NCBI GenBank assembly: GCA_903877945.1
Contig: CAIRFY010000323.1
Span: 1-41,614 of the forward strand
DNA: 41,614 nt
Reading direction: 5' to 3'
From: an uncultured Oscillochloris sp.
GTDB taxonomy: Bacteria > Chloroflexota > Chloroflexia > Chloroflexales > Chloroflexaceae
The stretch's first letter is position 1. Every line of letters starts with the position of its first letter. The position numbers and the translations under genes are program-made. Below are positions 2,972-34,816 of this stretch, one piece after another. The notes under the pieces are model-generated. The model was not told the DNA's origin. It saw nothing but the letters and a program-made list of their open reading frames with translations, and did not search any database.

Positions 2972-3058
2972 GATATGACAATCATATCGTTTGTTTCTAA
3001 GAAACGTTTTAACCTTAGTGCCGAATCTTCCAAGATTTACTTAAGAATGTTCAGGAAA
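2972..3058. promoter_or_regulatory. Candidate promoter/operator of the PepSY operon
   Basis: Perfect palindrome GATATGA-caa-TCATATC (2972-2988) overlapping a minus-strand TATGAT; palindrome GTTTCT-a-AGAAAC (2993-3005); loosely repeated (t/c)a(a/g)ga(a/t) motifs at about 11-bp spacing (3030-3058). Confidence 0.35.
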
Positions 3059-3240
3059 GATGAAGAGAGGGGTGCCGATCCGACCCTCATTTACCGTACG
3101 CCCCCTGACAACAATTTCTTAAAATCGCCTAGGAATAATGCGCTCCGGCTCAAAGGGTGCTCTTATAGAGATGTGCTACCATGCATGTATGTGTCATTCG
3201 GATAAGGTTACAGAAGGGCGATCTTCGCATGACGGTTTGG

Positions 3241-3298
3241 CGAGGACGCGAGGACGCGAGGACGCGAGGACGCGAGGACGTGAGGACGCGAGGACGCG
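3241..3298. repeat. 8-bp tandem repeat (CGAGGACG) x about 7
   Basis: Read directly; followed by partly complementary cctcgt repeats at ~3308-3330. Confidence 0.9.
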
Positions 3299-3401
3299 GT
3301 GGCATCGCCTCGTCACCTCGTTGCCTCGTCGCCAAACTGTAAAGCTAGAATGACCGAATCTGAACCCAATACTTTTCAAATAAGGAGTCTGTCGCGCTCA
3401 G

Positions 3402-3512
3402 CCCTCACCCCCCCAGCCCCCTCTCCCTGAACGGGAGAGGGGGAGCCGGAGGCGTCCTGTTGAGGAATCTCCCCTCTCCCCGTGAGGGAGAGGGGCAGGG
3501 GGTGAGGGGGCA
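3402..3512. repeat. ~110-bp palindromic MITE/REP-like element, copy 1
   Basis: ccctcaccc...ccctctccc-N-gggagaggg...gggtgaggg; near reverse complement of 21286-21394. Confidence 0.85.
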
Positions 3513-3574
3513 AGGTCGGCTTATTCGAAAAGTATTGGATCTGAACCTTGTCCCAGCAAGAAATATGGTGACGT

Positions 3575-4258
3575 ATGCGCGTGCTGATCATTGAAGACGA
3601 CCAGCGACTGGCCCGCCTGATGGCCCGTGTGCTGTCCGAGGAACACTACACGATTGAGGTTGCCCACGATGGTGAGGAGGGCCTCGATCAGGCACTCCAG
3701 GGTATCCACGAGGTGGTGATTGTGGACTGGATGCTGCCGGGTCGCGACGGGCCGGCGATCTGTCGGGCCATTCGCTCGGCCCGCCTGCCGATTGCTCTGT
3801 TGCTGCTCACCGCCCGTGGCCAGTTGGAGGATCGGGTGATCGGCCTGGATAGCGGGGCCGATGACTATCTCGTGAAGCCGTTCGCCTTCGAGGAGTTGCT
3901 GGCTCGCGTGCGCGCCCTCAGCCGACGCTTTGCCCCGCCGGGCAGTGAGCCGTCGGAGTTGCGTATCGGCAACCTGGTACTCGACATGCGCAGCCACACG
4001 GCGCGCCGTGGCGTTCGCTCCCTCGACCTGACGCCCACCGAGTGGAACCTGCTTGAGTATCTGATGCGTAACGTCAGCCTCAGCCTGTCTCGCCAGCAGA
4101 TTCTGGACTATGTGTGGTCGTATGACCACGATGTCCAGATCGCCCTGGTGGATGTCTATATCTCGTACCTGCGACGTAAGCTAAATGCGCCCGGCGAGCG
4201 TGACCCGATTGTCACCGTGCGCGGGGTGGGCTACCGGCTAGAGGCCGACCGTGTTTAA
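3575..4258 (+). CDS. OmpR/PhoB-family response regulator
   Basis: REC domain (IIEDD, VDWMLP, GADDYLVKPF) plus winged helix (LTPTEWNLL, VDVYISYLRRKL, TVRGVGY). Confidence 0.95.
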   Translation: MRVLIIEDDQRLARLMARVLSEEHYTIEVAHDGEEGLDQALQGIHEVVIVDWMLPGRDGPAICRAIRSARLPIALLLLTARGQLEDRVIGLDSGADDYLVKPFAFEELLARVRALSRRFAPPGSEPSELRIGNLVLDMRSHTARRGVRSLDLTPTEWNLLEYLMRNVSLSLSRQQILDYVWSYDHDVQIALVDVYISYLRRKLNAPGERDPIVTVRGVGYRLEADRV

Positions 4259-5813
4259 GGGCTTGCGTCTTCAGATGACCATGCTCTACACGCTGGCGGC
4301 CCTGGCGCTGATTGTGCTGGTGGGCGGCGGCGGCTACGTGATCGTTGAACGCTACTTTCAAGATGTCACCGACCTGGCCCTCCAGCATAAAATGACTCAC
4401 GAGTTTCATAGTCTGGCCGCACCCATTCCTGTCAATCTGCTTCCTGCTGATCGCGACTGGTCGATCTTGCGCGATAACGCGGCCCCGCTTAGTGGCCCGA
4501 AATCGAACCAGATGCCGATCAATCGCGATACGGCCATCGCCGCCGCCGTCACTGCCCACGGCAACGGCTCGGCGATTGAGGAAGTGAAGATAGCCGACGA
4601 TACTGGTCAGTATGCTTATGAGGTGAAGTTCGCGAACGGCGACGAGATCTATATCGATGCGTATACCGGGCAGGTGATTCACATTAAGCTGTACGGTAAC
4701 GATGCGCCGGTTTCTCCTACGACCCCGCCGATTGATCCGATCGCACGCTTCAGTGAGTCGGCCTATGACGCCGAACTGGCAGCGATTTTTGTACTCCCCC
4801 TGGACACGAGCGGTCGTCTACTCTTCGACCCGAACCCGTATGCTCCGCCGTTGATACCCGACAGAGACGCGCTCCGTATCGCCCTAGAACAGGGCCGCGA
4901 TCTGCGCACGATTATTAACGCCGACGGCAGCCGCACGCGGTTACTCACCTATCGGATGACCCGCAGTGACGGCCCGGCGGCACTACAGCTTGGCCGGATG
5001 CTCAGTGACCAGGAACACGTGTTGAACGAACTGCTGCTGGTGCTGCTGGCCCTCAGCGGGGTGAGTGTCATGTTGCTAGGGGTGGGAAGTTGGTGGCTCG
5101 CCGGTCGTGCGCTCGCCCCGGCCCAGGATGCCTGGGAGCGCCAGCAGTCATTTATCGCCAGCGCCAGCCACGAACTGCGCACGCCGCTCACGCTGATGCG
5201 CGCCAGCGCCGAGGTGGCGATCCGCTCTGTCCCCGAGTCGAACGTTGATCAGCGTGAGTTGCTCGGCGATGTACTGAGTGAGGCCGACCATATGCGTCGG
5301 CTGGTGGACGATCTGCTCATGCTCTCGCGGCTCGATAGCGGACGGCTCAAGCTTGAACGCAACCCGGTGGGTCTGTCCGAGCTGCTGGGCGACATCCAGC
5401 GCCAAATGAGCCGGATCAGCGAGTCGCGCCGGATTACGATTGCCCTCGGCCACGTCTCTGGCGTCGCGATGGCCGACGCCGACCGGCTGCGGCAGGTGAT
5501 GATCATTCTGCTCGATAACGCCCTGCGCTACACGCCGGACGACGGCAAGATCACAATCAGCGCCGATGTACACAGTGCGACGGTGCAGATCCATGTGGCC
5601 GATAACGGGAGCGGCATCCCGCCACAGCACCTGCCGCATGTCTTCGAGCGGTTCTACCGCGCCGACGAGGCCCGTGGCGTCTCGGGCAACGCGGGCCTGG
5701 GCCTGCCAATTGCCAAGGGGCTGATTGAGGCCCAGCACGGCAAGATCGGGATCGCCAGCACGTTCGGCGAGGGTACGACGGTCACGCTCACGCTCGATGT
5801 TGCGACGGTGTAG
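4251..5813 (+). CDS. Sensor histidine kinase with extracytoplasmic PepSY domain
   Basis: Two TMs; ASHELRTPL H-box; LLDNALRY, DNGSGIP, FERFYR, GLGLPI; PepSY-like AYEVKFANGDEIYIDAYTGQV. GTG start overlaps the RR stop. Confidence 0.92.
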   Translation: MFKGLRLQMTMLYTLAALALIVLVGGGGYVIVERYFQDVTDLALQHKMTHEFHSLAAPIPVNLLPADRDWSILRDNAAPLSGPKSNQMPINRDTAIAAAVTAHGNGSAIEEVKIADDTGQYAYEVKFANGDEIYIDAYTGQVIHIKLYGNDAPVSPTTPPIDPIARFSESAYDAELAAIFVLPLDTSGRLLFDPNPYAPPLIPDRDALRIALEQGRDLRTIINADGSRTRLLTYRMTRSDGPAALQLGRMLSDQEHVLNELLLVLLALSGVSVMLLGVGSWWLAGRALAPAQDAWERQQSFIASASHELRTPLTLMRASAEVAIRSVPESNVDQRELLGDVLSEADHMRRLVDDLLMLSRLDSGRLKLERNPVGLSELLGDIQRQMSRISESRRITIALGHVSGVAMADADRLRQVMIILLDNALRYTPDDGKITISADVHSATVQIHVADNGSGIPPQHLPHVFERFYRADEARGVSGNAGLGLPIAKGLIEAQHGKIGIASTFGEGTTVTLTLDVATV

Positions 5814-5852
5814 CGGGGCGAAGCAGCGTCTATAGTGGGTGTCGCAAACTCG

Positions 5853-5861
5853 TGCTATAAT
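5853..5861 (+). promoter_or_regulatory. Extended -10 element (TGnTATAAT) upstream of the defence-like operon
   Basis: tgctataat about 50 nt upstream of ATG 5911. Confidence 0.5.
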
Positions 5862-5910
5862 CCGGCATCCGCCGACTCTTCCTTGATTTCTGATATTGTC
5901 TACGCTTACT

Positions 5911-8900
5911 ATGCTCACCATAAACCCTAACTCCCGTGCCGCAGATGTCAAGTACGAGCCATTCCGGCCTGCCCTTCAGGAGCGGTTTCTCTCGCGTTTC
6001 TACCAAGTCTCGCGTGAACTGGTATTCCAGGCCGAGCAGCAGCGCGAAGATACGATCCGTGAGGAGGTAACCTGGGCGTTTGTAATCCGTGGTAATCCTC
6101 GTCAGCAAGCTATCTACCGAGCAGTGTGGCTACTTTTGCGCGACTTGTTGCGGGTTGGGTGGGGGCTTCGTTGGAATGACGATACCTCTACGCTAGAAAT
6201 TACACCACCTCCAGCCTATGAAAAGCCACGAAGTCAGGATGATATTCAAATCCACAAGCAAATGCGTCGGAATACGATGTCGCCTGAACGGCATACGCGG
6301 ATTATCCAAGCCAAAGACTTTATACAGCGCATGGAGTCTCCCCCAAAGGGGATGCCGATTACATCCCTTATAGCTGACGGTGAGGCACTGGCTCATGATT
6401 TACAAAACGTCTGCCAATTACGAGATAAAATCGCACGCGCTGAGGCTATGCGTCAGCTTGTGCGTCCCTATCTTCAACTCGTAGAGGAAAATATCCGATG
6501 TGCCTATACCGGGCTGCTTCTCGGTGATATTTGGCGCTACTTTCGTTTGACGTGGGCGTCACCAGTCTATACGACTCCTGGTCGCAGCCTGTTTTACCTA
6601 ATCCGTGACAAGGCTCGCCCCAATCATCCGGTTATGGGGATTGCGTCTCTTGAGAATGCGCCTATTTATATTGGCGACCGTGATCAGCACATTGGTTGGA
6701 CGCCAGATTCTTTTGTGAATGATCTCCTGGTTGGGGCAGATCGTGATCATGCGGTTCCAGTTGATACGGAGATTGTTCGGGGTGCGTTTGATCGGTTGCT
6801 CAACAATATCCGGCGTGCATTGAACGACATCAGTATTGATGGACTTTGCACGCACGATGAGTTGGCCCATCCTACTTCTGAGCTTGTTCAGCAGCTTAGC
6901 GCTCAGGCTGCGCAATTCGCCCAGGATCGCCAAGATGCGTTGCGTGAGTGGAAAATTTATAGCGATCAGCCTGAAAAGGCGACGGATACCGGCCTTCAAC
7001 GCAGCGCCTACGGCAATATCAGCGAGCAGGCGTACCTCTTGTTGTTTCAAAAAAAACGTGCGACTGAGCTTGCGCGTTTGCTTGGCGCACAGATTGCGAT
7101 TGAGCAACTTCTGGCCCGCGCTGATTTTGCCCAGACATGGCAACCTTGGGCAGAGACCGAACGGGGCAAGGCGGCCATTCGTAATGGCTTAGTGGCGATC
7201 AAAAATCAGCATGTTGGCACGAGTATCCTAGAGCTTAATATCTGTGGGGCGGTGCCCCCCTATAACCACCTGCTGGGTGGTAAGCTTACCGCACTCCTGA
7301 TGTGTTCGCCGCAGGTGGTCGCTGACTATAAGCGCAGATATGGCCGTTCACGTAGCGAGATTGCCTCGCAGTTGAAAGGCGAGGATGTTGTTCGGCCCGC
7401 AGACCTCGTCTACATCGGAACAACCGCACTCTATACCGCAGGATCAAGCCAGTATAATCGCCTGCGCTTGCCTGCTGGCTTATTAAGCGCGGAGGCATCT
7501 GAAACACCGATTGAATATATTGGAGCCACGCTCGGCTATGGGACGTCACATATCAGCGATGCGACCACTGCTGCGCTTGAGGAGGCGGTCGGCGACGATT
7601 TCCTTCAGGTGAACCATGTTCTTGGCGAGGGTGTCAGTCCGAAGATGCGGATCATCCGGCGCGGCCTTGATGCGATTTTTCGTGAGGGGCAACGAATTCT
7701 CTCTGATCAAATCTCTAAGCATCAGATGAGTCGTCTTGTCTATGGCGTTTTCCTGGCGAAAAATGGCAAGGAATACTTGCAAGGAAAAGCCGACCAGCCC
7801 CAATATATCTGGGAGACTGCGCTTGATCCGCACGAAGGAACCGAGCGGATTGCCGAATTTTGGCGCACCCGCTGGCTTGATGCGCGGATTGCCTTTGCGC
7901 CGGTCATGGATCGTCTGCGCCAGTTTCGCCCCGAAACACTGCTCCTATCACCGGAATTGACTGAAAAAGACGGGTTCGATTGGGCCTACAAGCTCTTCAA
8001 GGTGAAGTCGGCGTCTGAGCCAACGGACGTCGTCTCTCCGCTTGCGGATACCCGCACGATCTCGCCTGATGAAGCCCAACGCCGACTTGTTCGCAATCTC
8101 TATCGCGGTACAACTGGTTTTGCTGATGGTGTTCCGCTTGAGGATTTACAGCGACTCCACGCAACGACCGACCTTGACACGGTGATCCGAGCGCATATTC
8201 AGGCAAAACGCAGCGTGGTTCTAACTGGTAATCCTGGTGATGGCAAGACCCATCTGCTACGCATACTGGAGCAGGATATTGCCGCCCTGGGGGCGGTGGT
8301 TGAGCCAGACGCAAGCGCGGTGCTGAATGAAGAAATTATCGCGCATTGGCGCACAGCTCATGATGTCGGCAAGCCCTACTTTATCGCGATTAATGAGTCG
8401 GTGCTCTTTAATCTTGCTCAGGCACACCCGGAATTTGAGCCGCTCCAGTCCGCGTGGCGGCAGGTTACTGCGGCGCTCACGTATGATGCCACTCCATCAG
8501 CAGTGTCCGTAGGCGATGTGGTGGTGCTTGACCTAAGCCACCGGAATACGCTCGACGAGTCGCTGGTCAACGCAATCATCGCACAGCTTACCGATGTGAG
8601 GATGCTTCCGCGCTGTGCCCAGTGCCCTAGTGCTGGCTGCGATATGGTGCGTGGTCAGACCATCCTGCGTGAGCCGTTGGTTCGCAAACGCTTGCAAGCG
8701 ATCTTCGACCGCATGACCCGCCGTGGTATCCATGTCACCATGCGCGATCTCCAGTCATTTGTTGCGTATCTGCTGTTTGCAGATCGGGATTGCACCGATC
8801 TCTTGCGGGAGAGTGATGTGGCTGCGCTGGCCCTGCCCCAACTGCCCTATAAAGGCCACGGGCCGCTCTTTGATGCCGTGCGCCGTGTCTTTGACCCGGC

Positions 8901-9639
8901 CAGCGTCTGCCATCCGGTCTATGATGAACATCTGATCAACAATACGCTGCCCCTTGATGGGTGGCTCTCGGCTGATGTTGCTCCCGGCGGATCACTTGAT
9001 GTAAGCGCGACCAAGCTCTTTGAGCAGCGCAAGCGCACCTTCTACTTCTATCACCAGTATGGCGATGCACTCCTGACGATGGCGGGCGATGACGAGCAGG
9101 CATTTGAGGCGTTCCTCCAGGAGACGGATCTGCGGGTTGCGCTCCGCCAAGTCATGAAGAAGTTGGCGGCTTTTTTTGGCCGCGCTACCGAGAGCGATCA
9201 GTTACCAGTCTGGCAGAGCCACCGCTACGACCAGAGCGCTCAGCGCATCCTCTACGCGGTGCAGTCCCGACATCGCCGTGAGTTCGCGCTGCTGCGCCCA
9301 CACCTCTCGTCTCATATGAATGCCGCCTTCAGGCTGGCTGATGATCATCGCCTGCTGCGCTTTACCCGCAACCCCCAAGCCAGCCTGCGGGTTGACTACC
9401 CCCTGTTTCGCCTGCTGCACCAGGCTGAGCGTGGAGTGCCTGCCCTGCTGCTTCAACCAGATGCAACGCGGCGCGTATGGCAGTTCCTCGAACAACTGAC
9501 GGATCAGAATGCCCCCCTTGACGACGAGGTCACTGTTCAGATTCTTGATCCAATGACGGGAGAATACTTGGAAGTGACGGTAGACCAACAGATGAAGACG
9601 TATGTGTCAATTACAGGCAAGGAGGGTCGCCGTGTTTGA
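5911..9639 (+). CDS. DruA (DUF4338)-like domain fused to a DptF/MAD6-C-terminal-like P-loop ATPase (alternative TTG start at 5896)
   Basis: DruA-type motifs PGRSLFYLIRD...VMGIASL, CGAVPPYNHLLGGKL, TTALY..SSQYNRL, GATLGYG, GEGVSPKMR. C-terminal Walker A LTGNPGDGKT, IAINE, CxxC-x4-C, HVTMRDL. Confidence 0.75.
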   Translation: MLTINPNSRAADVKYEPFRPALQERFLSRFYQVSRELVFQAEQQREDTIREEVTWAFVIRGNPRQQAIYRAVWLLLRDLLRVGWGLRWNDDTSTLEITPPPAYEKPRSQDDIQIHKQMRRNTMSPERHTRIIQAKDFIQRMESPPKGMPITSLIADGEALAHDLQNVCQLRDKIARAEAMRQLVRPYLQLVEENIRCAYTGLLLGDIWRYFRLTWASPVYTTPGRSLFYLIRDKARPNHPVMGIASLENAPIYIGDRDQHIGWTPDSFVNDLLVGADRDHAVPVDTEIVRGAFDRLLNNIRRALNDISIDGLCTHDELAHPTSELVQQLSAQAAQFAQDRQDALREWKIYSDQPEKATDTGLQRSAYGNISEQAYLLLFQKKRATELARLLGAQIAIEQLLARADFAQTWQPWAETERGKAAIRNGLVAIKNQHVGTSILELNICGAVPPYNHLLGGKLTALLMCSPQVVADYKRRYGRSRSEIASQLKGEDVVRPADLVYIGTTALYTAGSSQYNRLRLPAGLLSAEASETPIEYIGATLGYGTSHISDATTAALEEAVGDDFLQVNHVLGEGVSPKMRIIRRGLDAIFREGQRILSDQISKHQMSRLVYGVFLAKNGKEYLQGKADQPQYIWETALDPHEGTERIAEFWRTRWLDARIAFAPVMDRLRQFRPETLLLSPELTEKDGFDWAYKLFKVKSASEPTDVVSPLADTRTISPDEAQRRLVRNLYRGTTGFADGVPLEDLQRLHATTDLDTVIRAHIQAKRSVVLTGNPGDGKTHLLRILEQDIAALGAVVEPDASAVLNEEIIAHWRTAHDVGKPYFIAINESVLFNLAQAHPEFEPLQSAWRQVTAALTYDATPSAVSVGDVVVLDLSHRNTLDESLVNAIIAQLTDVRMLPRCAQCPSAGCDMVRGQTILREPLVRKRLQAIFDRMTRRGIHVTMRDLQSFVAYLLFADRDCTDLLRESDVAALALPQLPYKGHGPLFDAVRRVFDPASVCHPVYDEHLINNTLPLDGWLSADVAPGGSLDVSATKLFEQRKRTFYFYHQYGDALLTMAGDDEQAFEAFLQETDLRVALRQVMKKLAAFFGRATESDQLPVWQSHRYDQSAQRILYAVQSRHRREFALLRPHLSSHMNAAFRLADDHRLLRFTRNPQASLRVDYPLFRLLHQAERGVPALLLQPDATRRVWQFLEQLTDQNAPLDDEVTVQILDPMTGEYLEVTVDQQMKTYVSITGKEGRRV

Positions 9640-11074
9640 TATAAAGCAGATACGTAACGCGATTGAGCTTCAATACATCGGCTTTAACCCCAACACAGCG
9701 AAAATCAAGCCAGCACATTTGGCGAACGGATTGTTTCGTGTCATGCTGAGTTATCGCTACGATACGACGCGGTTGCTTCAATTCGTTTACACACCCCTTA
9801 AAGAGGGCAATCCGCTCCGTGGTTGTGAGCCACAAACGATCTACGATCAGTTGGTGACAGCTAAGCACATTAACCCGCGTGATGTGTCGCTGCCACAGGT
9901 TTCTGCTCTACGATCCGCGCTGCGCAAAATTGTTACCGCAGATAACGCGGTCTACCCTGGGATGGACTCTTACTCGGCAGGTGCAGCCCCGTTTGTTTCT
10001 AACGACCATATTGGACAAGATGCGGGTGAGTTTCTTGCACTCTGGCTCCAGCGTGATGCTCCGAGATTTAGAGATACAATACTCTCTGCGCTTATGCAAC
10101 TTACCGATCCGATTACCGTTACTGCTACTCCTCTCTTCGATGAAGATGTTCCAAAGCCTGTAGTCGTTAAAGGCGCAGATACCATCTTGGCCTTTGGTGA
10201 TACTTGCCCTCCTACACTGCAACGTGGTATGGGTACACTAGCCATCGCGGCTGAACAACTTGCTGTTCATATGAACGCGCATCCTAATAAACTTGCACGT
10301 TTACGAATGGCGATGCTTCTAAGTTCATTTCTAGTTGTGCGCTATCTTGTCGATTTGGAAGCACTCTTCACACCATCCACTAGCCGTGCCCGACCGATCT
10401 TTCTACTCGATTTTTCGTCTGCCAACAATACTCCGATCCGCGCTGCCTCACAGCGGTCGTATATTTTTGCTTGCCAAGCGATGACTCGCTTTTACACTTG
10501 GATGTTCGCCCAATATCTTCGTGATCGTTATACACTTGAGGATCTCGCTCAGGTACCAACTTATGGCACGAAAATGAAATCTGCGGAACGACAGGTCATT
10601 GCCGATGTATGGCAAGGTGCTAATGACGACCAGCGTGACGCGCCTGACCCCTATCGGGTCTATGGGCAGGCAGTGTACGATATTATCGTACTGCTCTCTG
10701 AGGCACCTATCCTATACATGCGACAGATCGGTATCCGTGGCGGTCTATTTTGGCCTCCTTATGGACTCCAACCCACAAAGCAAATGGCACCTCGTCAAGA
10801 CATGTTGGAAGTATTGATCCGAAGCGTTTGCTGTCAGGGCGAGATCCTAACGCTTGGGCAGATCCAGGATCGGCTGTGGCAGACTTTTGGGATTATTATT
10901 GGTGGGCGAGCCGAGGATCTTGATCTCCTAGTAAGTGCTGGAATCTACCAAGCTGATAGTCAAGCTCTTGAGCATAACCAAGCGTCGTTTGTTCAACAAC
11001 TGAGTGACTTAAGCTTCGCACGTCTCCTTGCTGATGGTGTTCTCAATGTACAAGTAGGAACAGCATGGAACTGA
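9632..11074 (+). CDS. Hypothetical protein (~480 aa), DptG/MAD7-like by size and position
   Basis: GTG at 9632 with aaggagg RBS, overlapping the upstream stop. C-terminal FGIIIGG...FVQQLSDLSFARLLADGV resembles the DptG/MAD7 winged-helix-like end (recalled, not aligned). Confidence 0.55.
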   Translation: MFDIKQIRNAIELQYIGFNPNTAKIKPAHLANGLFRVMLSYRYDTTRLLQFVYTPLKEGNPLRGCEPQTIYDQLVTAKHINPRDVSLPQVSALRSALRKIVTADNAVYPGMDSYSAGAAPFVSNDHIGQDAGEFLALWLQRDAPRFRDTILSALMQLTDPITVTATPLFDEDVPKPVVVKGADTILAFGDTCPPTLQRGMGTLAIAAEQLAVHMNAHPNKLARLRMAMLLSSFLVVRYLVDLEALFTPSTSRARPIFLLDFSSANNTPIRAASQRSYIFACQAMTRFYTWMFAQYLRDRYTLEDLAQVPTYGTKMKSAERQVIADVWQGANDDQRDAPDPYRVYGQAVYDIIVLLSEAPILYMRQIGIRGGLFWPPYGLQPTKQMAPRQDMLEVLIRSVCCQGEILTLGQIQDRLWQTFGIIIGGRAEDLDLLVSAGIYQADSQALEHNQASFVQQLSDLSFARLLADGVLNVQVGTAWN

Positions 11075-14000
11075 CACTTACCGGCGTCCTAACCGATCTC
11101 CTGCAAACTCGGCTGCGGTCTACCAAGCTTGGCATTGTAATCCGGGGCATTCAAGATATTCGCCCGGTACCCATTGTCGTAGCAATACAAGCAACAATGG
11201 AAGATCCGCTTGCGGTGGCGGTTGTCGGCTATCACATCGATTTCACACCGGAACTGGAGATAGCCACAACCATTGAGGCGGCTGTCGGGTGGCGCAATCA
11301 GGCAAGTGACTATGCTGGACGTATCCTTGTGTTTGTTCCAGGCGATGTGGAGAAACTCGGATCGCTTGAAAGTTTCGACAAGGTAACTACGCGTGATGTT
11401 GCGAACCACCTTATCCAATGGGCTGAGCGAACCCTTGCACATACACCCCCACAGCAGCGGTTTTGGAGTGATCTGCAAAGCCAGGTGGCAACGCTTCCCT
11501 TTCGTATGCTGCTAGATTTTACCATTGCAGTTGCGGCAAGTACGCAGAATATTAGCGTCATCCCGAAAGAACTTTGGCGGCTCGGTCTGCTAGAAGATGG
11601 TACGCTGCTGAATATGCAAGTCAATGTAGGAGAGCGACTTGATCGAAATCGCGCTTTGATAACTCAGATTGGACAGCTTTCGGATAAAAGCCGCAAGCGC
11701 ATGAACTCGGTATTGCGTAGGGCCACGGGTACAGGGCATCAGCAATTACGTGAAGCGGCCCGCCAACTCCGAACATTTTTCGAGCAGGGAGATAATAGCT
11801 CGCTTGATGGTCTACGATTCGATGATGTGGAACGTCTTATACAGGCTGGAAAAATCGAGCCCAGCCCTGCGCCTAAACCGATTCTAGATGAGCCGACTGA
11901 AGTTGGTGACTATACTGATACGGAAGAACGCGAACCTCGCCGTATCCGCGATTCCGTATTGCGTGGGCAGGAGCTAACGCAGGCGGTGGCCGGACAAGTG
12001 GTGCGGCAGGGCGACCCGGCAGTTGTCGCGGCCTACCTCGAACGTGTGCATCAGCGCATGACCGATGAGCGCAGCGATGGGGACGACCTGATCGACGATG
12101 ACGTGCTGACGCCGATCAGTGGTGGCCGTTCAATCCAAACCAATGTCACCCGCCACACGCGATCACTCTACGAGTTTGTAGGCATCTTCTGCACCGAACA
12201 CAGTTGGGGCGGCGTAACTCAGGCGGATCAGCACAATATGCGTGATGTGATCCAGCGGTTCAGTAATGCCAGCGATGTCGAGCGGTACGACCCCTGCACA
12301 CCGTTGCAGGATGGACAGAGCCTGCTTAGCCTTTTAACAAACATTGATCAAGAAATGGCAAGTGCGACGCATTTCAGAGATCTCTGGACACAGTTGGAGC
12401 GGGCGCGGGCCACACTTTGCGTTCAGCTCGACCTTCTGATTGTTGATCCAATCTCCTTGATCTATAGCAATAGCACAGTGCGCGAGTCTGTTTACCAGTA
12501 TCTTGACACCTACGCCGAGTTGTTACGGCAGTTACATCGCCACGCTGGCGAACTCAATCAGCGATTTCGGAAGGCGTACCGCGCAATCCTCCAGGGTCTT
12601 TTGCGGCTCGATGTAATCTTTGTACACACTCCGTCTGAGAACCCGGCTCAGGCGAGCTATCGGCAATGGAAGGCGTTGCTAACCCCGCTGCATCCGTTAC
12701 ATCTCTGGCGCTACCGCACGATCCTTGAGCGCACCGGATCAAACCTCAGCGCGACTGAGCAAGAGCAATTAACCCACGCGCTGCCAAAACTGCCCCACCT
12801 GTTGCATTTTGTGGCGACTATTGATCCTCAGGGTGGCAAGATTACCCTGCCGCATGCAGGAAACCTAGAAACGCTGCCAATCTACGAGAATCGCACAAAC
12901 CGCTACCTGGGCAGTGATGGCGTTGAATTCCTCAGCGACTTGTTGAAAAGCTGGCTCACATTTGCCCCCTATAGCCGCCCGCAAATCCGCGTGGCGTTGG
13001 TTGATGTGCCCTACCTGCCTGACGCACTACGCGAAGTCTGGCGGTTTATGCGTGGGCAAAGCCAAACACGGGTTGTGATTGATTGCTACCGCACCCGTCC
13101 ACAACATGTGCTTGAGCATCTCGCGGAGATGGATTTTGAGGGGCAAGACAGTGCGATTGCTGAACTGCTGCTTGATGGGGCGTTGAGCCTCAACCTCTAC
13201 GAGAAAGATTCGCTGCGCGATGTGGTGCATGCACTTGAGCAGCGACAGGTGCATATTACCTACTGCTTCGACCAATCATCATACGACCTTACGAAGACGA
13301 CGCGGAGCGGACACCTTGTAGTTAGCCCGCTGGTTGTCACCTACAAGTACGGTTACGATGAGGCGTATAAGAAGGGCGAAATATCGCCCTCCTCGGATGC
13401 CGACAGTGGCTTATTCGCCGATTACCATTATTTGCTCAATCAAGCGATTGATCTACAAGAAGATCAGTCGTTTCAGGTACAAATCGGTAGCGGCAACGAT
13501 GTTGACGCCCTGAATACGCTATTGTCATCACAAAGCACACGTTGGCTTGCGGTTGCGGATCGCACCATGCTGGGCTATGCCCCACATGAGTCCGTGCCGC
13601 TGGTGGAACAACTGCATGGTCGGCGCGAAGTTGCGGTCTGGGCCTATGCCACATCACGCTCCGTAGTCCAGTTTGTTGAGATTCTCCGCTCCTTCAACCT
13701 ATTGCCGAACGAGGCTCATATTGCCTCGTTGATGCAGAAGTACGGACATATTGCGGCTGGTGGACTCTTTAGTGCGGTGCGGGCCAATAATCTCTCAACG
13801 GCACAGCGAAATCAGCGGAAAGGACTGATCGGGACGGTTGTTGCGGCACACTGGTATGCCTCACGCTACCCTGGAGCGCTGATCGCATCGCTCGATAGCG
13901 GGCTTGCACGCCAATGGCTTTCGCTACAATCGGCTTCTCGTGAGCGTGCGGATCTGGTCGGGCTACGCGAAGATGACCAAGGCAATTTGATCATTGAAGT

Positions 14001-15855
14001 CATTGAGGTGAAGGCGATTGAGCGTGCGGGTAAAGAAGTGCAGGTAGGCAGCAATCCACAGACTCGGCAGATCACACTAAGCGGAGCAGCAGTAGACCAA
14101 CTGCGCTCAACGCTGGCAGCAATCGCTCCGATTTTCTTGCCCGCTGAGTCACAGGAAGGGCTCTTTACCCAAGCCAGACGCGAGGCGCTGAAATACCAAC
14201 TCTATCGCGAGTGCTTCCGTGAGTTGCACCCTAAAACGGATCAACATCGCTGGTACAAACTCCTGAATAACGCCTTTCGGGAAGATCCCAACGCTGCTCC
14301 GGTCAGCGTGATTTGTCGAGGAGTCGTGACCCACGTTCTCTTCGAGGAGCATGGTGATACAGAAATTGTGGTGGATGGAAGCGGCGAGATCAGCTTGGTA
14401 CGACTACGCGATGAAGCTGTCCAACGGCTCGTTGCGCCACGTGATACCGAGCAACCTCCATTGCCTCCTGCCCTGCCACCATTATCTTCGCCACCGTCTA
14501 CAGGCGGTCGTGATCAGTCACCTGAGCCACATGAACCCATCATCAGCCATGAAGATTCAGGATCTCAACCTCGCTCATCTGTAGGCGAAGAAAAACAGGA
14601 AGTGATCACACCGCCTGCGCCAGTATTGCCAGTCAATCTGCATAGCATCTCTACAGTCATTGCGCCAACCTATGATGTGATGCTTGGTGACACGGGTCAT
14701 CCTCAGCAGTATGGACTGCTTGGTCGGGTTGGCGAGCGTAAGCGCGTAGCACTTGACCTCAACGGCACGAACACGATCAGTTTGTTTGGAGTCCAAGGAG
14801 CGGGCAAATCGTATACCCTTGGAAGTATTGTCGAGATGGCGACAAAGCTGTTTCCGGGGATTAACGCGCTGCCCTCACCACTTGCCTCGGTCATCTTCCA
14901 CTATCACCAGAGCCAGGACTACCCCCCAGAGTTTATCTCTATGATTGCGCCAAACAGCAAGGAAGAGGAGCTAAGGGTACTGGCTCAGCAGTACAACGCA
15001 CGCCCGGACTGCCTTGATGATGTGTTGATCTTAACATCGGCTGACAAGGTGGCACGACGCCGAATGGAGTTCCCATCAGTTCAGGTGCAACCTATTTTAT
15101 TCAGCTCAAACGAGCTTTCGCTCAAGGATTGGCGCTTCCTGATGGGCGGGGTTGGCAACCAGATGTATGTCAAACAGATGAATGTGATCATGCGCCTGCT
15201 TCGTGAGCAGATTACGCTTGATGCGCTACGGGATGAGATTAGCACATCGAGCTTGAGTGACAGCCAAAAAACCATCGCAAACACGCGATTGAATTTTGCG
15301 GCTCAATTCATTGATGATCGCCAGCATCTCGGGACAGTGTTACAGCCGGGGCGGCTCGTTATTGTGGATCTGCGCGATGAATTTATTGACAAAGACGAGG
15401 CACTCGGACTGTTTGTTGTCCTGCTCAATATCTTCGCCAATGCTGGTCGAGAGAAGGGGTTCAATAAGCTGGTCGTCTTCGATGAAGCCCACAAGTACAT
15501 GAATAACGAAGACCTCACGAGCCATATTGTTGACGTTATTCGGCAGATGCGGCACCAAGGGGTGTCAGTGCTGATTGCTTCTCAAGATCCGTTATCACTC
15601 GCCAGCGCGATCATCGAGCTATCCTCGATTGTCATCCTGCATCGCTTTAACGCGCCCAAGTGGCTTAAACATATCCAACAGTCGGTTTCTGCGCTCGCCG
15701 ATCTGACTGCCGGACAACTTGCATCGTTGCGCCCTGGCGAGGCGTTTATTTGGGCAAACAAAGCGACTGATGTGCAGTACACTCAGCGGGCCATAAAGAT
15801 ACGCTTTCGCCCACGGTTGACTCAACACGGGGGTGGGACGAAAACAGCTATATAA
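11065..15855 (+). CDS. Large PD-(D/E)XK nuclease + HerA/FtsK-type ATPase, DptH/MAD8-like
   Basis: Walker A ISLFGVQGAGKSYT, Walker B LVVFDEAHKY, RQMRHQGVSVLIASQDP. RADLVG...IEVK nuclease-like motif. LLTPLHPLHLW motif. Overlaps upstream gene (ATGGAACTGA). Confidence 0.75.
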   Translation: MELTLTGVLTDLLQTRLRSTKLGIVIRGIQDIRPVPIVVAIQATMEDPLAVAVVGYHIDFTPELEIATTIEAAVGWRNQASDYAGRILVFVPGDVEKLGSLESFDKVTTRDVANHLIQWAERTLAHTPPQQRFWSDLQSQVATLPFRMLLDFTIAVAASTQNISVIPKELWRLGLLEDGTLLNMQVNVGERLDRNRALITQIGQLSDKSRKRMNSVLRRATGTGHQQLREAARQLRTFFEQGDNSSLDGLRFDDVERLIQAGKIEPSPAPKPILDEPTEVGDYTDTEEREPRRIRDSVLRGQELTQAVAGQVVRQGDPAVVAAYLERVHQRMTDERSDGDDLIDDDVLTPISGGRSIQTNVTRHTRSLYEFVGIFCTEHSWGGVTQADQHNMRDVIQRFSNASDVERYDPCTPLQDGQSLLSLLTNIDQEMASATHFRDLWTQLERARATLCVQLDLLIVDPISLIYSNSTVRESVYQYLDTYAELLRQLHRHAGELNQRFRKAYRAILQGLLRLDVIFVHTPSENPAQASYRQWKALLTPLHPLHLWRYRTILERTGSNLSATEQEQLTHALPKLPHLLHFVATIDPQGGKITLPHAGNLETLPIYENRTNRYLGSDGVEFLSDLLKSWLTFAPYSRPQIRVALVDVPYLPDALREVWRFMRGQSQTRVVIDCYRTRPQHVLEHLAEMDFEGQDSAIAELLLDGALSLNLYEKDSLRDVVHALEQRQVHITYCFDQSSYDLTKTTRSGHLVVSPLVVTYKYGYDEAYKKGEISPSSDADSGLFADYHYLLNQAIDLQEDQSFQVQIGSGNDVDALNTLLSSQSTRWLAVADRTMLGYAPHESVPLVEQLHGRREVAVWAYATSRSVVQFVEILRSFNLLPNEAHIASLMQKYGHIAAGGLFSAVRANNLSTAQRNQRKGLIGTVVAAHWYASRYPGALIASLDSGLARQWLSLQSASRERADLVGLREDDQGNLIIEVIEVKAIERAGKEVQVGSNPQTRQITLSGAAVDQLRSTLAAIAPIFLPAESQEGLFTQARREALKYQLYRECFRELHPKTDQHRWYKLLNNAFREDPNAAPVSVICRGVVTHVLFEEHGDTEIVVDGSGEISLVRLRDEAVQRLVAPRDTEQPPLPPALPPLSSPPSTGGRDQSPEPHEPIISHEDSGSQPRSSVGEEKQEVITPPAPVLPVNLHSISTVIAPTYDVMLGDTGHPQQYGLLGRVGERKRVALDLNGTNTISLFGVQGAGKSYTLGSIVEMATKLFPGINALPSPLASVIFHYHQSQDYPPEFISMIAPNSKEEELRVLAQQYNARPDCLDDVLILTSADKVARRRMEFPSVQVQPILFSSNELSLKDWRFLMGGVGNQMYVKQMNVIMRLLREQITLDALRDEISTSSLSDSQKTIANTRLNFAAQFIDDRQHLGTVLQPGRLVIVDLRDEFIDKDEALGLFVVLLNIFANAGREKGFNKLVVFDEAHKYMNNEDLTSHIVDVIRQMRHQGVSVLIASQDPLSLASAIIELSSIVILHRFNAPKWLKHIQQSVSALADLTAGQLASLRPGEAFIWANKATDVQYTQRAIKIRFRPRLTQHGGGTKTAI

Positions 15856-15865
15856 AACACCGGGA

Positions 15866-16030
15866 TGCTGAGCGAAGCGAAGTGTGACAGGGCGAGTTTT
15901 GTGCTACGACGTGGTTTGCGGATATAGCGGTTCTATCTAGGTCGTGAAGCGGTGTTTGTCGTGTCGGCTTCAGCCGCACAGGCGCTGAAGCGCCCACTAC
16001 GAACTTGACACCTGACACCTGACACCTGAA
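15866..16030. repeat. Cluster of short repeats: REP half-site (gctgagcgaagcgaag), GTAG-type REP-like palindrome (ggcttcagc...gctgaagcgcccactac) and (TGACACC)x3
   Basis: Read directly at ~15867-15882, ~15965-16000 and ~16006-16029. Confidence 0.6.
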
Positions 16031-16066
16031 ACCTTGCGCTACTGCCTCCGATATGGATGATCGCCC

Positions 16067-18169
16067 ATGCCTGATGGTACTCGTGCCGATCCGCGCCCTC
16101 GCACCACGCTCCTGCTCGCCATTGTCTTGCTGATGATCGCCCTGTTGCCGCGTGTGATCAGTCTGAGCGATTTTTACACGACTGATGAGGCGTATTTCTG
16201 GCAGGGGCGAGTCGCCCATTTCAGCGCCGCGATCACGATGGGCGACTGGCGCAGTACGGATCAGACGGGCCACCCTGGGGTCACGACGATGTGGCTGGGT
16301 GCGCTGGGTAAGTACCTCGCCGATGGCTTGGGTGTGCCCGCGCCGAGTCCTGGCAGCGGGACGCACTATTTGTCGTTCCTGCGCTTACCTCTGGCGGTGA
16401 TGAACGCCCTCGCTGTTGGCCTGGGCTATCTGTTGCTGCGACGGCTGCTGCGCCCTTACGTTGCGTTTGGTGCCGCCTTGCTCTGGGCTACGTCGCCCTT
16501 CCTGATCGCCCACAGTCGGTTGCTGCACTTGGATGCGCTGCTCACGTCGCTGATCAGCCTGAGTCTGTTGAGCCTACTGGTCGCCACCATCGGGGCGCGG
16601 GCACCGATTCGCCCGCTCTGGCGGCGTCCGTCCCTGCTGCTCGCGGGTGTGTTCGCGGGTCTAGCCCTGCTCACGAAGTCGCCGGCGCTGCTGCTGCTGC
16701 CCTTCGCCGGGCTGCTGATGTTCGCTAGTGAGCTTGGCGCACGGCCCGCCGGGGTCACGCTCTGGCGGGCCACGTTCAGCGCCCTGGCCCGTGCGCTCGG
16801 TGCCTTCCTGGTCTGGATGATGGCGGCGACAGTGATCTTTGTGGCTCTCTGGCCGGCAATGTGGGTGAGTCCGCTTGGCTCGCTGGGCAGCGTCATCACG
16901 GAGGTGATCAACAACGGGGGTAAGGCGCACAGCGCAGGTAACTACTTTATGGGCCAGGCGGTGGCTGACCCCGGCTGGTTCTTTTACGTTGCGGTGGTAC
17001 TCTGGCGCGGCGAGCCGCCGCTGACGCTCGGCCTGCTGGCCCTGGCTGGCTACGGCATCGGGTGGCTGCTTCACCGGCAGGCGACTACGGTAGGCCAGGA
17101 GTTGCGCAGCCGGGAGCCTGATCTGATCCGCCAGCGCCAGGTGATTATGGCCCTGATCGCCTTCAGCTTGCTCTTTTTGATCGCCCTGACCCAGATGGCC
17201 AAGAAATTTGACCGCTACCTACTGCCGCTCTGGCCCTGTCTGGAGATCCTCGCGGCGATTGGTATCTCGGCCACGCTGGACCGGGCGGCACGCACGGTCT
17301 GGGGCCGTGCGATCCTGAGCCGACGCCTTACTCGCCCGCTGCTCGCCGGGGCGGCTGTGGTATCCTTAATCGTCCCGCTGATCTCCTACGCGCCATATTA
17401 TCTGGCCTACTACACGCCGCTGCTCGGCGGCGGCACCACCGCCCAGGATGTGCTGCTGGCTGGATGGGGCGAGGGTATGGAGCAGGCGGGTGCCTGGCTG
17501 AACGCCCGTCCCGATTTCGAGCGCGGCCCGGTACTCTCGTGGATTCCTGAGACGCTGACGCCCTTTGTGCGGCCCACGGTGGCGGTGTACGACCTCGATA
17601 CCGACGCCCTCAGCAAATCGGCGAACTACGCCGTTGTCTACACCAGCGTCGCCGCACGCGATAGCCGTACTGTTGCCGAGGCATTCGCCTTGCAGACGCC
17701 GCCGCTCTTCACCCTGCGCGTCCACGGTGTCACCTACGCGAGCATCCACCAGGTGCCGCGCCCCTACAGCCGCACGCTGGATGCGGTATTCAGCGGGGTT
17801 CACCTGCGCGGCATCTCTGACCAGATCATCGGCTCGACCCTGGTGATCACGCCTTCGTGGGACATCCAGCTAGACCGGGCCGGTGGCCTGCGGAGCTTTG
17901 TCCACGTCCTCAGTTCCGAGGGTACGCTTGTCGGTCAGATCGACACGGTGATCGACGATGGCATGTTCGCCAATTGGCAGGTCGGACAGCAGTTCGGGAC
18001 GCCACTGCCGATTGGTCTGCCCGCCGACCTGCCCGCCGGTGAGTACCGGGTGCTGCTCGGCCTCTACACGCCCGAGGATGGCCAGCGCCTGCCCGTCACG
18101 ATGGGACAAGTCGCCCCCGAGAATGTGGATGGGCCAAATGCGGTTGAGATCCTGCGCATCAGGCGGTAG
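16067..18169 (+). CDS. GT-C superfamily (PMT/ArnT-like) membrane glycosyltransferase
   Basis: TTDEAY acidic loop, GHPGVT, HSRLLHLDA, LALLTKSP, KKFDRYLLP; many TM helices; C-terminal soluble domain. Confidence 0.8.
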   Translation: MPDGTRADPRPRTTLLLAIVLLMIALLPRVISLSDFYTTDEAYFWQGRVAHFSAAITMGDWRSTDQTGHPGVTTMWLGALGKYLADGLGVPAPSPGSGTHYLSFLRLPLAVMNALAVGLGYLLLRRLLRPYVAFGAALLWATSPFLIAHSRLLHLDALLTSLISLSLLSLLVATIGARAPIRPLWRRPSLLLAGVFAGLALLTKSPALLLLPFAGLLMFASELGARPAGVTLWRATFSALARALGAFLVWMMAATVIFVALWPAMWVSPLGSLGSVITEVINNGGKAHSAGNYFMGQAVADPGWFFYVAVVLWRGEPPLTLGLLALAGYGIGWLLHRQATTVGQELRSREPDLIRQRQVIMALIAFSLLFLIALTQMAKKFDRYLLPLWPCLEILAAIGISATLDRAARTVWGRAILSRRLTRPLLAGAAVVSLIVPLISYAPYYLAYYTPLLGGGTTAQDVLLAGWGEGMEQAGAWLNARPDFERGPVLSWIPETLTPFVRPTVAVYDLDTDALSKSANYAVVYTSVAARDSRTVAEAFALQTPPLFTLRVHGVTYASIHQVPRPYSRTLDAVFSGVHLRGISDQIIGSTLVITPSWDIQLDRAGGLRSFVHVLSSEGTLVGQIDTVIDDGMFANWQVGQQFGTPLPIGLPADLPAGEYRVLLGLYTPEDGQRLPVTMGQVAPENVDGPNAVEILRIRR

Positions 18170-18214
18170 GGGTGGCGCAGCGTCACGGGCCGTGGGAAAG
18201 AAATCTGCAATCCT

Positions 18215-19801
18215 ATGAACGCTCGCACCCTGCTTACCCTGCTCGCCCTCGTCGCCATTGTCGGTGGCTGTGTACCGATTGTCGCCACTATCAGTGCGAC
18301 CCCGTCGGTTGCCCGCGCTGCCAGAGCGACGGCCACACCCCCGCCCAGCGCCACGCCGACACCACAGCCTAGCGTCACGCCCACGCCAACCCTGCCACCC
18401 GAGGTGGCCGTCCAGGCTCCTGCCCTTCTGCCCGCAGCGGTGGGCGACTTGGCCGGAGCCTCGGCCTGGGATCGCTACACGATCATTGCCGCCCTGAACC
18501 CGAGTGATCTCAGCGTGCGCGGCACTGTCACCCTCGATATGCGCAACCGCTACGGCGTTGATCTGGATCAACTCTACTTTCATCTCTACCCGAACCACCC
18601 CGACTTCGGCGGGCGGCTGGATGTTACCAGCGCCAGCGTGAACGACGTACCTGTAACCTCGGACACCCTGCACAACGACACCCTGCTGCGCCTTACGTTA
18701 CCCGCGCCCCTGCGCCCCGGCCAGTCCGCCCACGTGGTGCTAGAATTCAGCGCCAAGACCACTAAGAATGCGAGCAGCAAGACCTTCGGAGCCTCCAACT
18801 TCGAGGCGGGGGTCTGGTCAATGGCGAACTTCTACCCTATCCTGGCCCGCCACTTCGCCGACAGTGGCTGGGACACCCGGCAGGTTGATTCGCGTGGCGA
18901 CTTTGCAGTTTCCAGCGTGGCTCTCTATGATGTGACCATTGACGCGCCAAACGGCTGGACTCTGGTGAGTACCGGCGTGACGATACACGACGGGCCAGTG
19001 AACGAACAGGTACACCGCCAGCGATTCGTCAGCGGGCCGCAGCGCGAGTTCTACCTGGGCGCTCTCCAGGGGCTCGCTCAAGCCGAGACGCTGGTGGACG
19101 GCACCCGTATCGTCTCCTATTTCCAGCCCGGCAGCGCCGACGGCGGCACATTCGGCCTGGAGGTGGCCACGCAATCCCTGCGCGCCTTCAACGCACGCTA
19201 CGGCACCTACCCCCTGGCCGAACTTGAGGTGGTGCAGTCGGCCCTCACCCAGTTCCTGGGCATGGAGTACCCTGGCGTGGTGCTGATCGAGCAAAAGCTC
19301 TACACCAAGCCAATGGGCGATCTGGAGCCGACCATTGCCCACGAGATCGCCCACCAGTGGTGGTACAGCCAGGTTGGCAACGACGCCCAGGGCGAGGCGT
19401 GGCTCGACGAGGGTCTGGCCAGTTATTCGCAGGTGGTTTACGACGAGGCTATCGGCAATCCGCAACGTACTGAGGGTGAACTCCAGTTTTTTCGCAACAT
19501 CTTCATCACTGCCCGCGCCGTCGGTCACGACGCACCCCTAAACAGTTCACCCGCCGACCTGGGAAATGGTCGCTACTACCCTGTGATCTACGCCAAAGCC
19601 CCGCTCTTCTTCCACGCCCTGCGTAGACAGCTTGGTGAGACAGGATTTGACCGATTCATCCACGCCTACTACGCGGCCTTCCGCTACCAGGACGTTGCTG
19701 GCCCTGACATGCTGCGGGTCGCCCAGCAAAGCTGTGGCTGTGATCTGACGAAGATCTATCACGACTGGGTACTCACAGCGGCCAAGGTAGCGATACCATA
19801 G
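18215..19801 (+). CDS. M1-family zinc metallopeptidase, probable lipoprotein
   Basis: GMEYP, HEIAHQWW...WLDEGLA (HEXXH-18-E), IYAKA; lipobox VGGC. Confidence 0.9.
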   Translation: MNARTLLTLLALVAIVGGCVPIVATISATPSVARAARATATPPPSATPTPQPSVTPTPTLPPEVAVQAPALLPAAVGDLAGASAWDRYTIIAALNPSDLSVRGTVTLDMRNRYGVDLDQLYFHLYPNHPDFGGRLDVTSASVNDVPVTSDTLHNDTLLRLTLPAPLRPGQSAHVVLEFSAKTTKNASSKTFGASNFEAGVWSMANFYPILARHFADSGWDTRQVDSRGDFAVSSVALYDVTIDAPNGWTLVSTGVTIHDGPVNEQVHRQRFVSGPQREFYLGALQGLAQAETLVDGTRIVSYFQPGSADGGTFGLEVATQSLRAFNARYGTYPLAELEVVQSALTQFLGMEYPGVVLIEQKLYTKPMGDLEPTIAHEIAHQWWYSQVGNDAQGEAWLDEGLASYSQVVYDEAIGNPQRTEGELQFFRNIFITARAVGHDAPLNSSPADLGNGRYYPVIYAKAPLFFHALRRQLGETGFDRFIHAYYAAFRYQDVAGPDMLRVAQQSCGCDLTKIYHDWVLTAAKVAIP

Positions 19802-34784: not shown

Positions 34785-34816
34785 CATCACCTTCACCTCA
34801 ACCACGAGCACTACTC

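What the first reader, a model, noticed from the sequence alone, without database searches (positions are those of the whole stretch)
5911..15855. Candidate new defence system: DruA-ATPase fusion + DptG/MAD7-like + DptH/MAD8-like three-gene operon
Seen: three overlapping, co-oriented genes (~1240, ~480 and 1596 aa) behind a TGnTATAAT element, inserted between ordinary host genes. Known: an ATPase / mid-size protein / large HerA-type ATPase trio is the restriction module of Dnd (DptFGH, partnered by dndABCDE) and of MADS (MAD6-8, partnered by a type I-like methylase and specificity subunit). DruA belongs to Druantia type I with DruB-E. Here none of dnd, druE, a kinase or an adjacent methylase is present. 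Inference: a self-contained hybrid anti-phage system pairing a Druantia component with a Dpt/MADS-type effector.
Basis: partly seen in the sequence, partly recalled or inferred. Interest (0 to 1): 0.88.

Follow-up and report, generated by a model that had tools for sequence, protein, structure and literature searches.

The report
Restriction trio with Mom-like marking enzyme
Three inserted genes form a known type of DNA-restriction module (DndFGH/SspFGH family) whose first protein carries a DruA domain distantly related to the phage Mu DNA-modifying enzyme Mom; that domain likely marks the cell's own DNA, but this is untested, and the gene layout is already in print.

Summary
The three overlapping genes are real, low in GC and inserted at a site empty in two relatives. 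They are a stand-alone DndFGH/SspFGH-family module: DruA(DUF4338)-DndF fusion, DndG-like, DndH-like. Not a new system: Rakesh et al. 2024 list GNAT(DUF4338)-DndF fusions and modification-free DndFGH, and this scan noted the architecture in six earlier findings on other genomes. F-G-H synteny holds in 44 of 49 GTDB loci that carry the DndF part; 9 of 48 carrier genomes show any phosphorothioation gene. Two additions. (1) DruA is Mom-clade: Mom is the top (tied) fold match, and a profile chain runs Mom - transposon DUF4338 - DruA, while generic GNATs do not link. Mom's catalytic Arg/Ser/Asp are replaced in DruA. Druantia I is reported to mark adenines by an unidentified gene, so DruA is the likely writer (about 50%). 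(2) Gene 3 is a chimera: body of this lineage, motor 61-75% identical to MADS MAD8 proteins; most relatives carry FtsK instead. The host also holds unlinked Ssp and MADS-like genes. Defence activity is untested.

The parts
5853..5861 (+). extended -10 promoter-like motif TGCTATAAT (function untested)
5911..9639 (+). gene 1, 1242 aa: long DruA/DUF4338 GNAT domain fused to a DndF/SspF core
6034..7941 (+). DruA domain (res 42-677): GNAT fold (model res ~179-626) with a ~170-residue helical insert; Mom-clade by fold and profile chain; Mom R111/S124/D149 positions replaced, Y159 position kept (Y515)
8068..9639 (+). DndF core: Walker A GNPGDGKT (773-780), invariant D800 at strand 2, Asn828 in place of the Walker B Asp, Cys cluster 902/905/910/961, invariant Arg 878/927/945
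   Evidence: features as defined in PMC10853773 section 20
9632..11074 (+). gene 2, 480 aa, DndG/SspG/MAD7-like; predicted triple winged-helix DNA-binding subunit (fold not tested here)
11065..15855 (+). gene 3, 1596 aa, DndH-like; chimeric motor
12892..13659 (+). Rossmann methyltransferase-fold domain of gene 3 (res ~610-865); the predicted inactive methylase domain of DndH
13945..14013 (+). PD-(D/E)xK nuclease motif D963...E981-V-K983, conserved in at least 90% of 39 homologues
14677..15855 (+). MAD8-type HerA ATPase (res 1205-1596) after a Pro/Ser-rich linker: Walker A GVQGAGKS 1242, DEAH 1473, ASQD 1505, tail IRFRPRLTQHGGGT resembling Rakesh clade 6
15949..16036 (.). dispersed host repeat (123 BLAST hits of the right flank in the genome), just outside the insert; not part of the system

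Best explanation
The three genes are a horizontally acquired DndFGH/SspFGH-family module with a DruA GNAT domain fused to DndF, and they likely work as a self-contained restriction-modification system in which DruA would chemically mark adenines in host DNA. Shown: domain content, intact nuclease and ATPase motifs, conserved synteny, low GC and an empty site in relatives, Mom-clade ancestry of DruA, and a MAD8-type motor on a body whose relatives mostly carry FtsK. Inferred from characterised DndFGH/SspFGH: F, G and H form a complex; G and the DNA-binding domains of H read sites, the HerA motor translocates DNA and the PD-(D/E)xK domain nicks DNA lacking the self mark. Inferred and untested: the DruA domain is the writer, adding an acyl- or aminoacyl-type group to adenine as Mom does, though with altered chemistry since Mom's catalytic Arg, Ser and Asp are replaced.
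For: Family. Obligate DruA coupling in three arrangements: fused (33 of 44 complete GTDB trios), separate upstream gene (11 of 44), and separate gene after the trio (L156); note loci were found through DruA, so this shows DruA keeps company with FGH, not that all FGH need DruA. No PT partner as a rule: DndC over cut-off in 7 of 48 carrier genomes, a strong SspD in 1 of 48, SspB in 5 of 48, union 9 of 48; two closed chromosomes (L017, L023) have neither DndC nor SspB. Of 109 flanking proteins scanned, only one locus (L037) gave a DNA methylase. Unpaired SspFGH damages unmarked host DNA (PMC8092258 passages), so a mark or other safeguard is needed. Mom link: top structural match Mom 8bv8, Z 9.5, rmsd 3.9, 172 aligned of 202; hhalign Mom-transposon DUF4338 96.7% (E 3.5e-10), transposon-short DruA 96.5% (E 1e-9), transposon-long DruA 93.6%, short-long DruA 100%; a host GNAT control alignment links to none. 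Type I Druantia puts a PacBio 'm6A' signal on CAGCTGNC with no methylase gene identified (10.1101/2024.04.14.589459 passages); CAGCT fits Mom's SASNY consensus (PMC13219725 passages).
Against: R111, S124 and D149, near-invariant in 15 Mom sequences, and kept in most of 10 transposon DUF4338 proteins, are replaced in DruA (positions mapped by eye through the alignments). Rakesh et al. read the same domain as an occasional protein-targeting co-effector. Most carrier genomes are MAGs of unknown completeness, so missing PT genes may be unassembled. The flank scan left out proteins under 200 or over 700 aa and 31 of 140 picked neighbours. All three carriers in the host's family have PT genes. No experiment on this or any GNAT-DndFGH locus was found.
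Confidence: 0.5

Rival explanations
1. DruA is a back-up suicide effector that acylates a host protein or tRNA when DndF senses infection (Rakesh et al.'s reading); self/non-self discrimination is done by the FGH core alone.
For: Stated in PMC10853773 section 20; DndF also takes HEPN, NERD and kinase fusions, and the host's second DndF is kinase-fused; protein and small-molecule acetyltransferases tie with Mom in the fold search; Mom catalytic residues are replaced.
Against: DruA is linked by sequence profile to Mom-like proteins and not to generic GNATs; it stays with the trio as a separate gene before or after it; long DruA also pairs with a MORC/GHKL ATPase and DruE-like helicases in 26 of 31 loci lacking DndF, a context typical of DNA-acting modules.
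Confidence: 0.2
2. DruA is a reader, not a writer: a Mom-fold domain that binds modified adenine or another adduct on invader DNA and aims the nuclease at it (type IV-like restriction), which needs no self mark.
For: Loss of the Mom catalytic residues with many new invariant aromatic and basic residues (W208, R209, Y210, R212, W215, K382, R383, Y508, Q514, Y515, R580); DndH already uses an inactive methylase fold; no modification genes nearby.
Against: Type I Druantia writes a host mark and has no methylase; DruA is its only member with a Mom-related fold that I examined (other Dru subunits were not folded).
Confidence: 0.17
3. The trio is protected in trans by the host's phosphorothioation cluster (sspD, sspB, sspC on contig C29), like an unlinked SspFGH.
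For: SspD 2.7e-116, SspB, SspC in the same genome; genes 1 and 2 score best to Ssp models; G009 and G044, the two family relatives with the trio, also have PT genes.
Against: SspB-type genes occur in 42 of 78 genomes of this family and 7 of 8 congeners, so co-occurrence is background; 39 of 48 carriers show no clear PT gene, including two closed chromosomes.
Confidence: 0.09
4. The module is not a working defence here: a recently inserted, silent or decaying island, or a non-defence DNA-processing unit.
For: Absent from 8 of 8 congeners by the gene 2 query; decayed copies exist (L025, L038, L047, L094); no activity data.
Against: All three frames are intact with conserved catalytic motifs and a promoter-like motif; neighbours of homologues are often integrases, Abi, Fic and ABC-3C genes.
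Confidence: 0.04

Closest known systems
GNAT(DUF4338)-DndF variant of stand-alone DndFGH (Rakesh, Aravind, Krishnan 2024, PMC10853773)
   Same: N-terminal DUF4338 on a DndF core with Walker A, Asn Walker B and Zn insert; 450-500 aa DndG; DndH with methylase fold, REase and captured HerA/FtsK; no linked modification genes.
   Different: That paper calls the GNAT an occasional co-effector; here it maps to the Mom clade and travels with the trio fused or split. The supplement could not be read, so whether this sub-lineage or its MAD8-type motor is listed there is unknown.
SspABCD-SspFGH (Wang et al. 2021, PMC8092258) and DndABCDE-FGH
   Same: F-G-H order and sizes; best PADLOC hits for genes 1-2 are SspF and SspG; relatives' gene 3 hits SspH.
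   Different: No adjacent PT genes; extra 690-aa DruA domain; scores are weak (SspF 5e-16, SspG 1.6e-5).
MADS, mad1-8 (10.1101/2023.03.30.534895)
   Same: MAD6/7/8 are a homologous trio; the window's motor is 61-75% identical to the ATPase of MAD8-type proteins; gene 2 C-terminus aligns to a MAD7 (86.5%).
   Different: No kinase on gene 1, no mad2 methylase or mad5; the first 1130 aa of gene 3 give no BLAST hit to 98 of the 99 MAD8-type or other far hits and miss the MAD8 cut-off (28.6 vs 175 bits).
Druantia type I (DruA-E)
   Same: DruA domain homologous to a true type I DruA (hhalign 100%).
   Different: No DruB-E in the locus; long form with helical insert; the genome's DruE-like helicase sits in a separate methylase-containing cluster.
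Phage Mu Mom (PMC13219725, PMC7261163)
   Same: GNAT fold, top structural match, transitive profile link, Tyr159 position kept.
   Different: R111, S124, D149 replaced; three times larger; host defence context rather than phage anti-restriction; substrate untested.

Membership tests
DndFGH (as redefined by Rakesh 2024) | three-gene F-G-H operon | tested here: met
   window; 44 of 49 GTDB loci with the DndF part, the other 5 end at contig edges
DndFGH (as redefined by Rakesh 2024) | DndF: canonical Walker A, Asn in Walker B, acidic residue at strand 2, lid Arg, optional Zn insert | tested here: met
   GNPGDGKT, N828 and D800 invariant in 52 of 52; the strand-2 motif reads xD, not ND; Cys 902/905/910/961; R878/927/945 invariant, lid Arg not assigned structurally
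DndFGH (as redefined by Rakesh 2024) | DndG: 450-500 aa triple winged helix | tested here: inconclusive
   length 480, SspG 1.6e-5, MAD7 C-terminus 86.5%; not folded; no PDB sequence hit
DndFGH (as redefined by Rakesh 2024) | DndH: inactive methylase fold + REase + C-terminal HerA/FtsK | tested here: met
   methylase fold Z 10-12.8 over res ~610-865; D963/E981/K983; HerA hits; inactivity not tested
DndFGH (as redefined by Rakesh 2024) | nicks or restricts invading DNA | not testable with these tools
   needs phage/plasmid and in vitro assays
PT-coupled Dnd/Ssp R-M | linked dndBCDE or sspBCD | tested here: not met
   none in the window; unlinked ssp on C29; 9 of 48 carriers have any PT gene
MADS | MAD6, MAD7, MAD8 matches | tested here: not met
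   no mad6 or mad7 model hit; MAD8 below cut-off; only the motor is MAD8-type
MADS | mad2 methylase / mad5 within the operon | tested here: not met
   flanks are a histidine kinase and a glycosyltransferase
Druantia type I | DruA | tested here: met
Druantia type I | DruB-D and DruE helicase in the operon | tested here: not met
   absent from the window; no DruD-like hit in the genome, DruE-like gene in another cluster
Mom-like DNA modifiers | Mom-clade GNAT ancestry | tested here: met
   transitive hhalign chain with negative GNAT control; top but tied fold match; direct comparison not significant
Mom-like DNA modifiers | catalytic R111, S124, D149 | tested here: not met
   variable, Gly and Thr/Ser at the equivalent positions in 58 long DruA; Y159 equivalent invariant
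Mom-like DNA modifiers | modifies adenine in dsDNA | not testable with these tools
   needs nucleoside LC-MS or kinetic sequencing

The most novel reading that the evidence does not exclude
DruA is a host-encoded Mom-clade DNA-modifying enzyme: the missing writer of the Druantia type I adenine mark and the third kind of self mark (after phosphorothioate and methylation) used by the FGH restriction engine. This would make the trio a complete three-gene restriction-modification system based on base acylation, with a swappable motor taken here from MADS.
Probability: 0.45. Interest if true: 0.78.

Novelty: new member of a known kind. Interest (0 to 1): 0.46.

Why it matters
Two open questions meet here: how stand-alone DndFGH modules avoid cutting their own genome, and which gene writes the adenine mark reported for Druantia type I, which has no methylase. 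Placing DruA in the Mom clade gives one direct test for both. If right, bacteria use Mom-type base modification as a self mark, and 'm6A' calls from such systems are a different adduct. The locus also records a motor exchange with MADS among close relatives (gene 3 bodies 50% identical carry different motors). If wrong, this is one more copy of a published, untested variant.

Tried and rejected
Sequence searches of solved structures found no DndG, DndF or DruA relative; Foldseek on both models gave nothing under E 0.001 in PDB; no DndH structure appeared in the wide search, which does not exclude kinship. BFVD gave two uncharacterised giant-virus proteins, not followed. Direct Mom-DruA comparisons failed. 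No DruA homologue in annotated phages. A metagenome scan with the single protein found nothing; the alignment worked. No target-site duplication: longest shared flank word 7 nt; the two closest congeners have other genes after the kinase, so the insertion ends could not be mapped. The DruA tree is the quick one only, the careful search did not finish; it groups MORC-linked and short DruA each as one side of a branch and cannot count fusion events. Direction of the motor swap is inferred from frequency, not from a rooted tree. Rejected: new system, MADS member, Druantia member, DndC/DndD in the host. Iyer et al. 2013 and 2009 on Mom clades were not held; from recall they may already group DUF4338-like proteins with Mom. 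The Rakesh supplement was unreadable.

Full report
Observation. Three overlapping + strand ORFs of 1242, 480 and 1596 aa occupy 5911-15855; gene 2 most likely starts at GTG 9632 behind AAGGAGG. The stretch is 53.5% GC against 62-63% around it. It lies between a two-component pair and a PMT-type glycosyltransferase, which are about 0.5 kb apart in two congeners, G066 and G068. Gene 2 finds no match in 8 of 8 congeners and matches in 2 of 77 family genomes. So it is a patchy, horizontally acquired insert (inference). TGCTATAAT sits at 5853.

What the genes are. Gene 1 has DruA (PADLOC 5e-127, res 42-677) then SspF/DndF (5e-16). The DndF part has the features that Rakesh et al. define (PMC10853773; I read the abstract, passages and sections 11, 19, 20, 21, 22, 25; supplement unreadable): Walker A, Asn for the Walker B Asp, an acidic strand-2 residue and a Cys cluster, invariant or nearly so in 52 aligned homologues. 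Gene 2 is weakly SspG-like and aligns at its C-terminus to the host's own MAD7. The model of gene 3 res 1-1130 (pLDDT 81) holds a methyltransferase fold at about 610-865, followed by a conserved D963...E981-V-K983 nuclease motif and a HerA ATPase. This is the DndH layout.

It is in print. [quoted passage not shown] Six earlier findings of this scan on other genomes reached the same architecture; I consulted them after forming my reading.

Distribution. 366 proteins matched gene 1 among 7993 scored candidates, the best 120 mostly full length. Of 80 metagenome loci, 69 carry DndF and 48 the full trio; I did not inspect all of the other 21, most being short contigs, but L094 is a real exception with gene 1 alone. 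L156 has DruA as a separate gene after F-G-H-SfsA. Haloarchaeal plasmids carry split versions.

Partners. In 48 carrier genomes (46 from GTDB loci, two of them fragments without visible G/H, plus G009 and G044), DndC passed its cut-off in 7, a strong SspD was found in 1 (16 more had weak matches, E 2e-30 or worse), SspB in 5; union 9. Most are MAGs; two closed chromosomes lack DndC and SspB. A Pfam scan of 109 of 140 picked neighbours (200-700 aa) found a methylase at one locus. Against self-sufficiency: the host has sspD/sspB/sspC with a PglZ-like neighbour on C29 and a kinase-DndF/MAD7/MAD8-start locus on C285/C524, and both family carriers have PT genes. But SspB-type genes are in 42 of 78 family genomes, so this is background.

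Motor swap. None of the 44 GTDB trios shares the window's motor: 37 have FtsK, 6 other HerA types, 1 is cut off. G009's gene 3 is 50% identical over res 1-1206 yet continues into an FtsK-type sequence at its contig end; L093 shares both parts at 71%. Of 119 other top hits to the motor, 20 share the window's N-terminal body (56-74%), 89 are 1700+ aa proteins with a MAD8-type start and motors 61-75% identical, 10 are neither; 98 of those 99 give no BLAST hit to the body. Four tested score 159-180 bits on the MAD8 model, two over its cut-off. A sub-lineage therefore likely took its motor from a MADS MAD8 (direction inferred).

What DruA is. The model of res 1-690 (pLDDT 90.7) matches GNAT folds; Mu Mom ranks first (Z 9.5, rmsd 3.9, 172 aligned) but within 1 Z of ordinary acetyltransferases. 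Profiles built here from 15 Mom, 10 transposon-type DUF4338, 12 short DruA and 58 long DruA sequences link Mom to transposon DUF4338 (96.7%), these to short (96.5%) and long DruA (93.6%), and short to long (100%); 11 host GNATs link to none; Mom to DruA directly is not significant. The short reference is a true type I DruA. Mom R111, S124, D149 and Y159 (PMC13219725, abstract and passages; PMC7261163 passages) are kept in most transposon proteins; in DruA only the Tyr position is kept (mapped by eye). Type I Druantia gives an 'm6A' PacBio signal at CAGCTGNC and the authors say the responsible gene is unidentified (10.1101/2024.04.14.589459 passages); CAGCT fits Mom's SASNY, a coincidence that is suggestive only. 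Searches found no paper tying DruA to Mom; Iyer 2013 and 2009 could not be read and may do so (recalled).

Mechanism. Unrestrained SspFGH damages unmarked host DNA (PMC8092258 passages) and MADS uses a methyl mark (10.1101/2023.03.30.534895 passages). By analogy this trio needs a mark; DruA is the only candidate that always accompanies it in these loci. I put the writer model at 0.5, suicide co-effector 0.2, reader 0.17, PT in trans 0.09, inactive 0.04. Family assignment itself is about 0.95 sure. I also read passages of PMC12839542, 10.1101/2025.09.15.676423 and 10.64898/2026.05.12.722862; none assigns DruA a function.

Verdict. A real, intact member of a published but untested DndFGH variant, not a new system. 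Interest 0.46, carried by the testable Mom-DruA link and the MADS motor swap.

Noticed in passing
G000:C29 (L087) 833-11155, - strand: sspD, sspB, a 157-aa gene, a 1694-aa SspC/BrxC and a 775-aa protein that looks PglZ-like by eye (no model hit): a PT-writing Ssp/BREX-like cluster; a second SspB-type gene is on C145.
   Followed up: partly
G000:C285 and C524 (L089, L088): Second F-G-H module: kinase-fused DndF (mad6-like), MAD7 over the NCBIfam cut-off, start of MAD8; the two contigs overlap with a few differences, so possibly two copies.
   Followed up: partly
L046, L051, L058, L068, L076 and others: Long (680 aa) DruA directly behind a MORC/GHKL ATPase, followed by ~1000-aa proteins and SNF2- or DruE-like helicases; 26 of 31 DndF-less GTDB loci; one side of a well supported branch in the quick tree. 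A Druantia-like variant not matched to a named type here.
   Followed up: partly
L004:17052-17744, L013:9280-9993 and others: An SfsA-family nuclease gene accompanies 25 of 44 GTDB trios, before or after them; absent from the window.
   Followed up: partly
L023:15243-20579: DndH homologue ending in a Lon protease C-terminal domain after FtsK (Pfam 1e-41).
   Followed up: no
L094:10001-14662: Gene 1 homologue (70%) without G and H, followed by an HNH protein weakly like PT-DNA restriction endonucleases.
   Followed up: no
G000:C392 (L257) 51-18472: DruE/YprA-like helicase, PDC-M26A/B-like genes, a DrmMI/IIG-like methylase and a 995-aa gene: a DISARM/ARMADA-like cluster.
   Followed up: partly
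window 31131-41473: CHAT-AAA-TPR protein, type I R (34817-37180) and M (37843-39282), AAA_21 ATPase + DUF4276 pair: a second defence-like stretch.
   Followed up: no
window 26900-30502, - strand: 1200-aa ORF with no Pfam match.
   Followed up: no
window 15949-16036: Dispersed ~90-nt repeat with over 100 matches in the genome.
   Followed up: no
L215-L222, L225-L227: Short DUF4338 proteins, several fused to transposase-like tails, keep Mom's catalytic residues: candidate transposon-borne Mom enzymes.
   Followed up: partly
L234:804-878: A phage tRNA-Gly gene lies right beside a Mom-like gene (Mom uses Gly-tRNA).
   Followed up: no
BFVD A0A3G4ZXG3, A0A5K0UAJ3: Uncharacterised giant-virus proteins match the DruA model (E 7e-9, 2e-6).
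   Followed up: no
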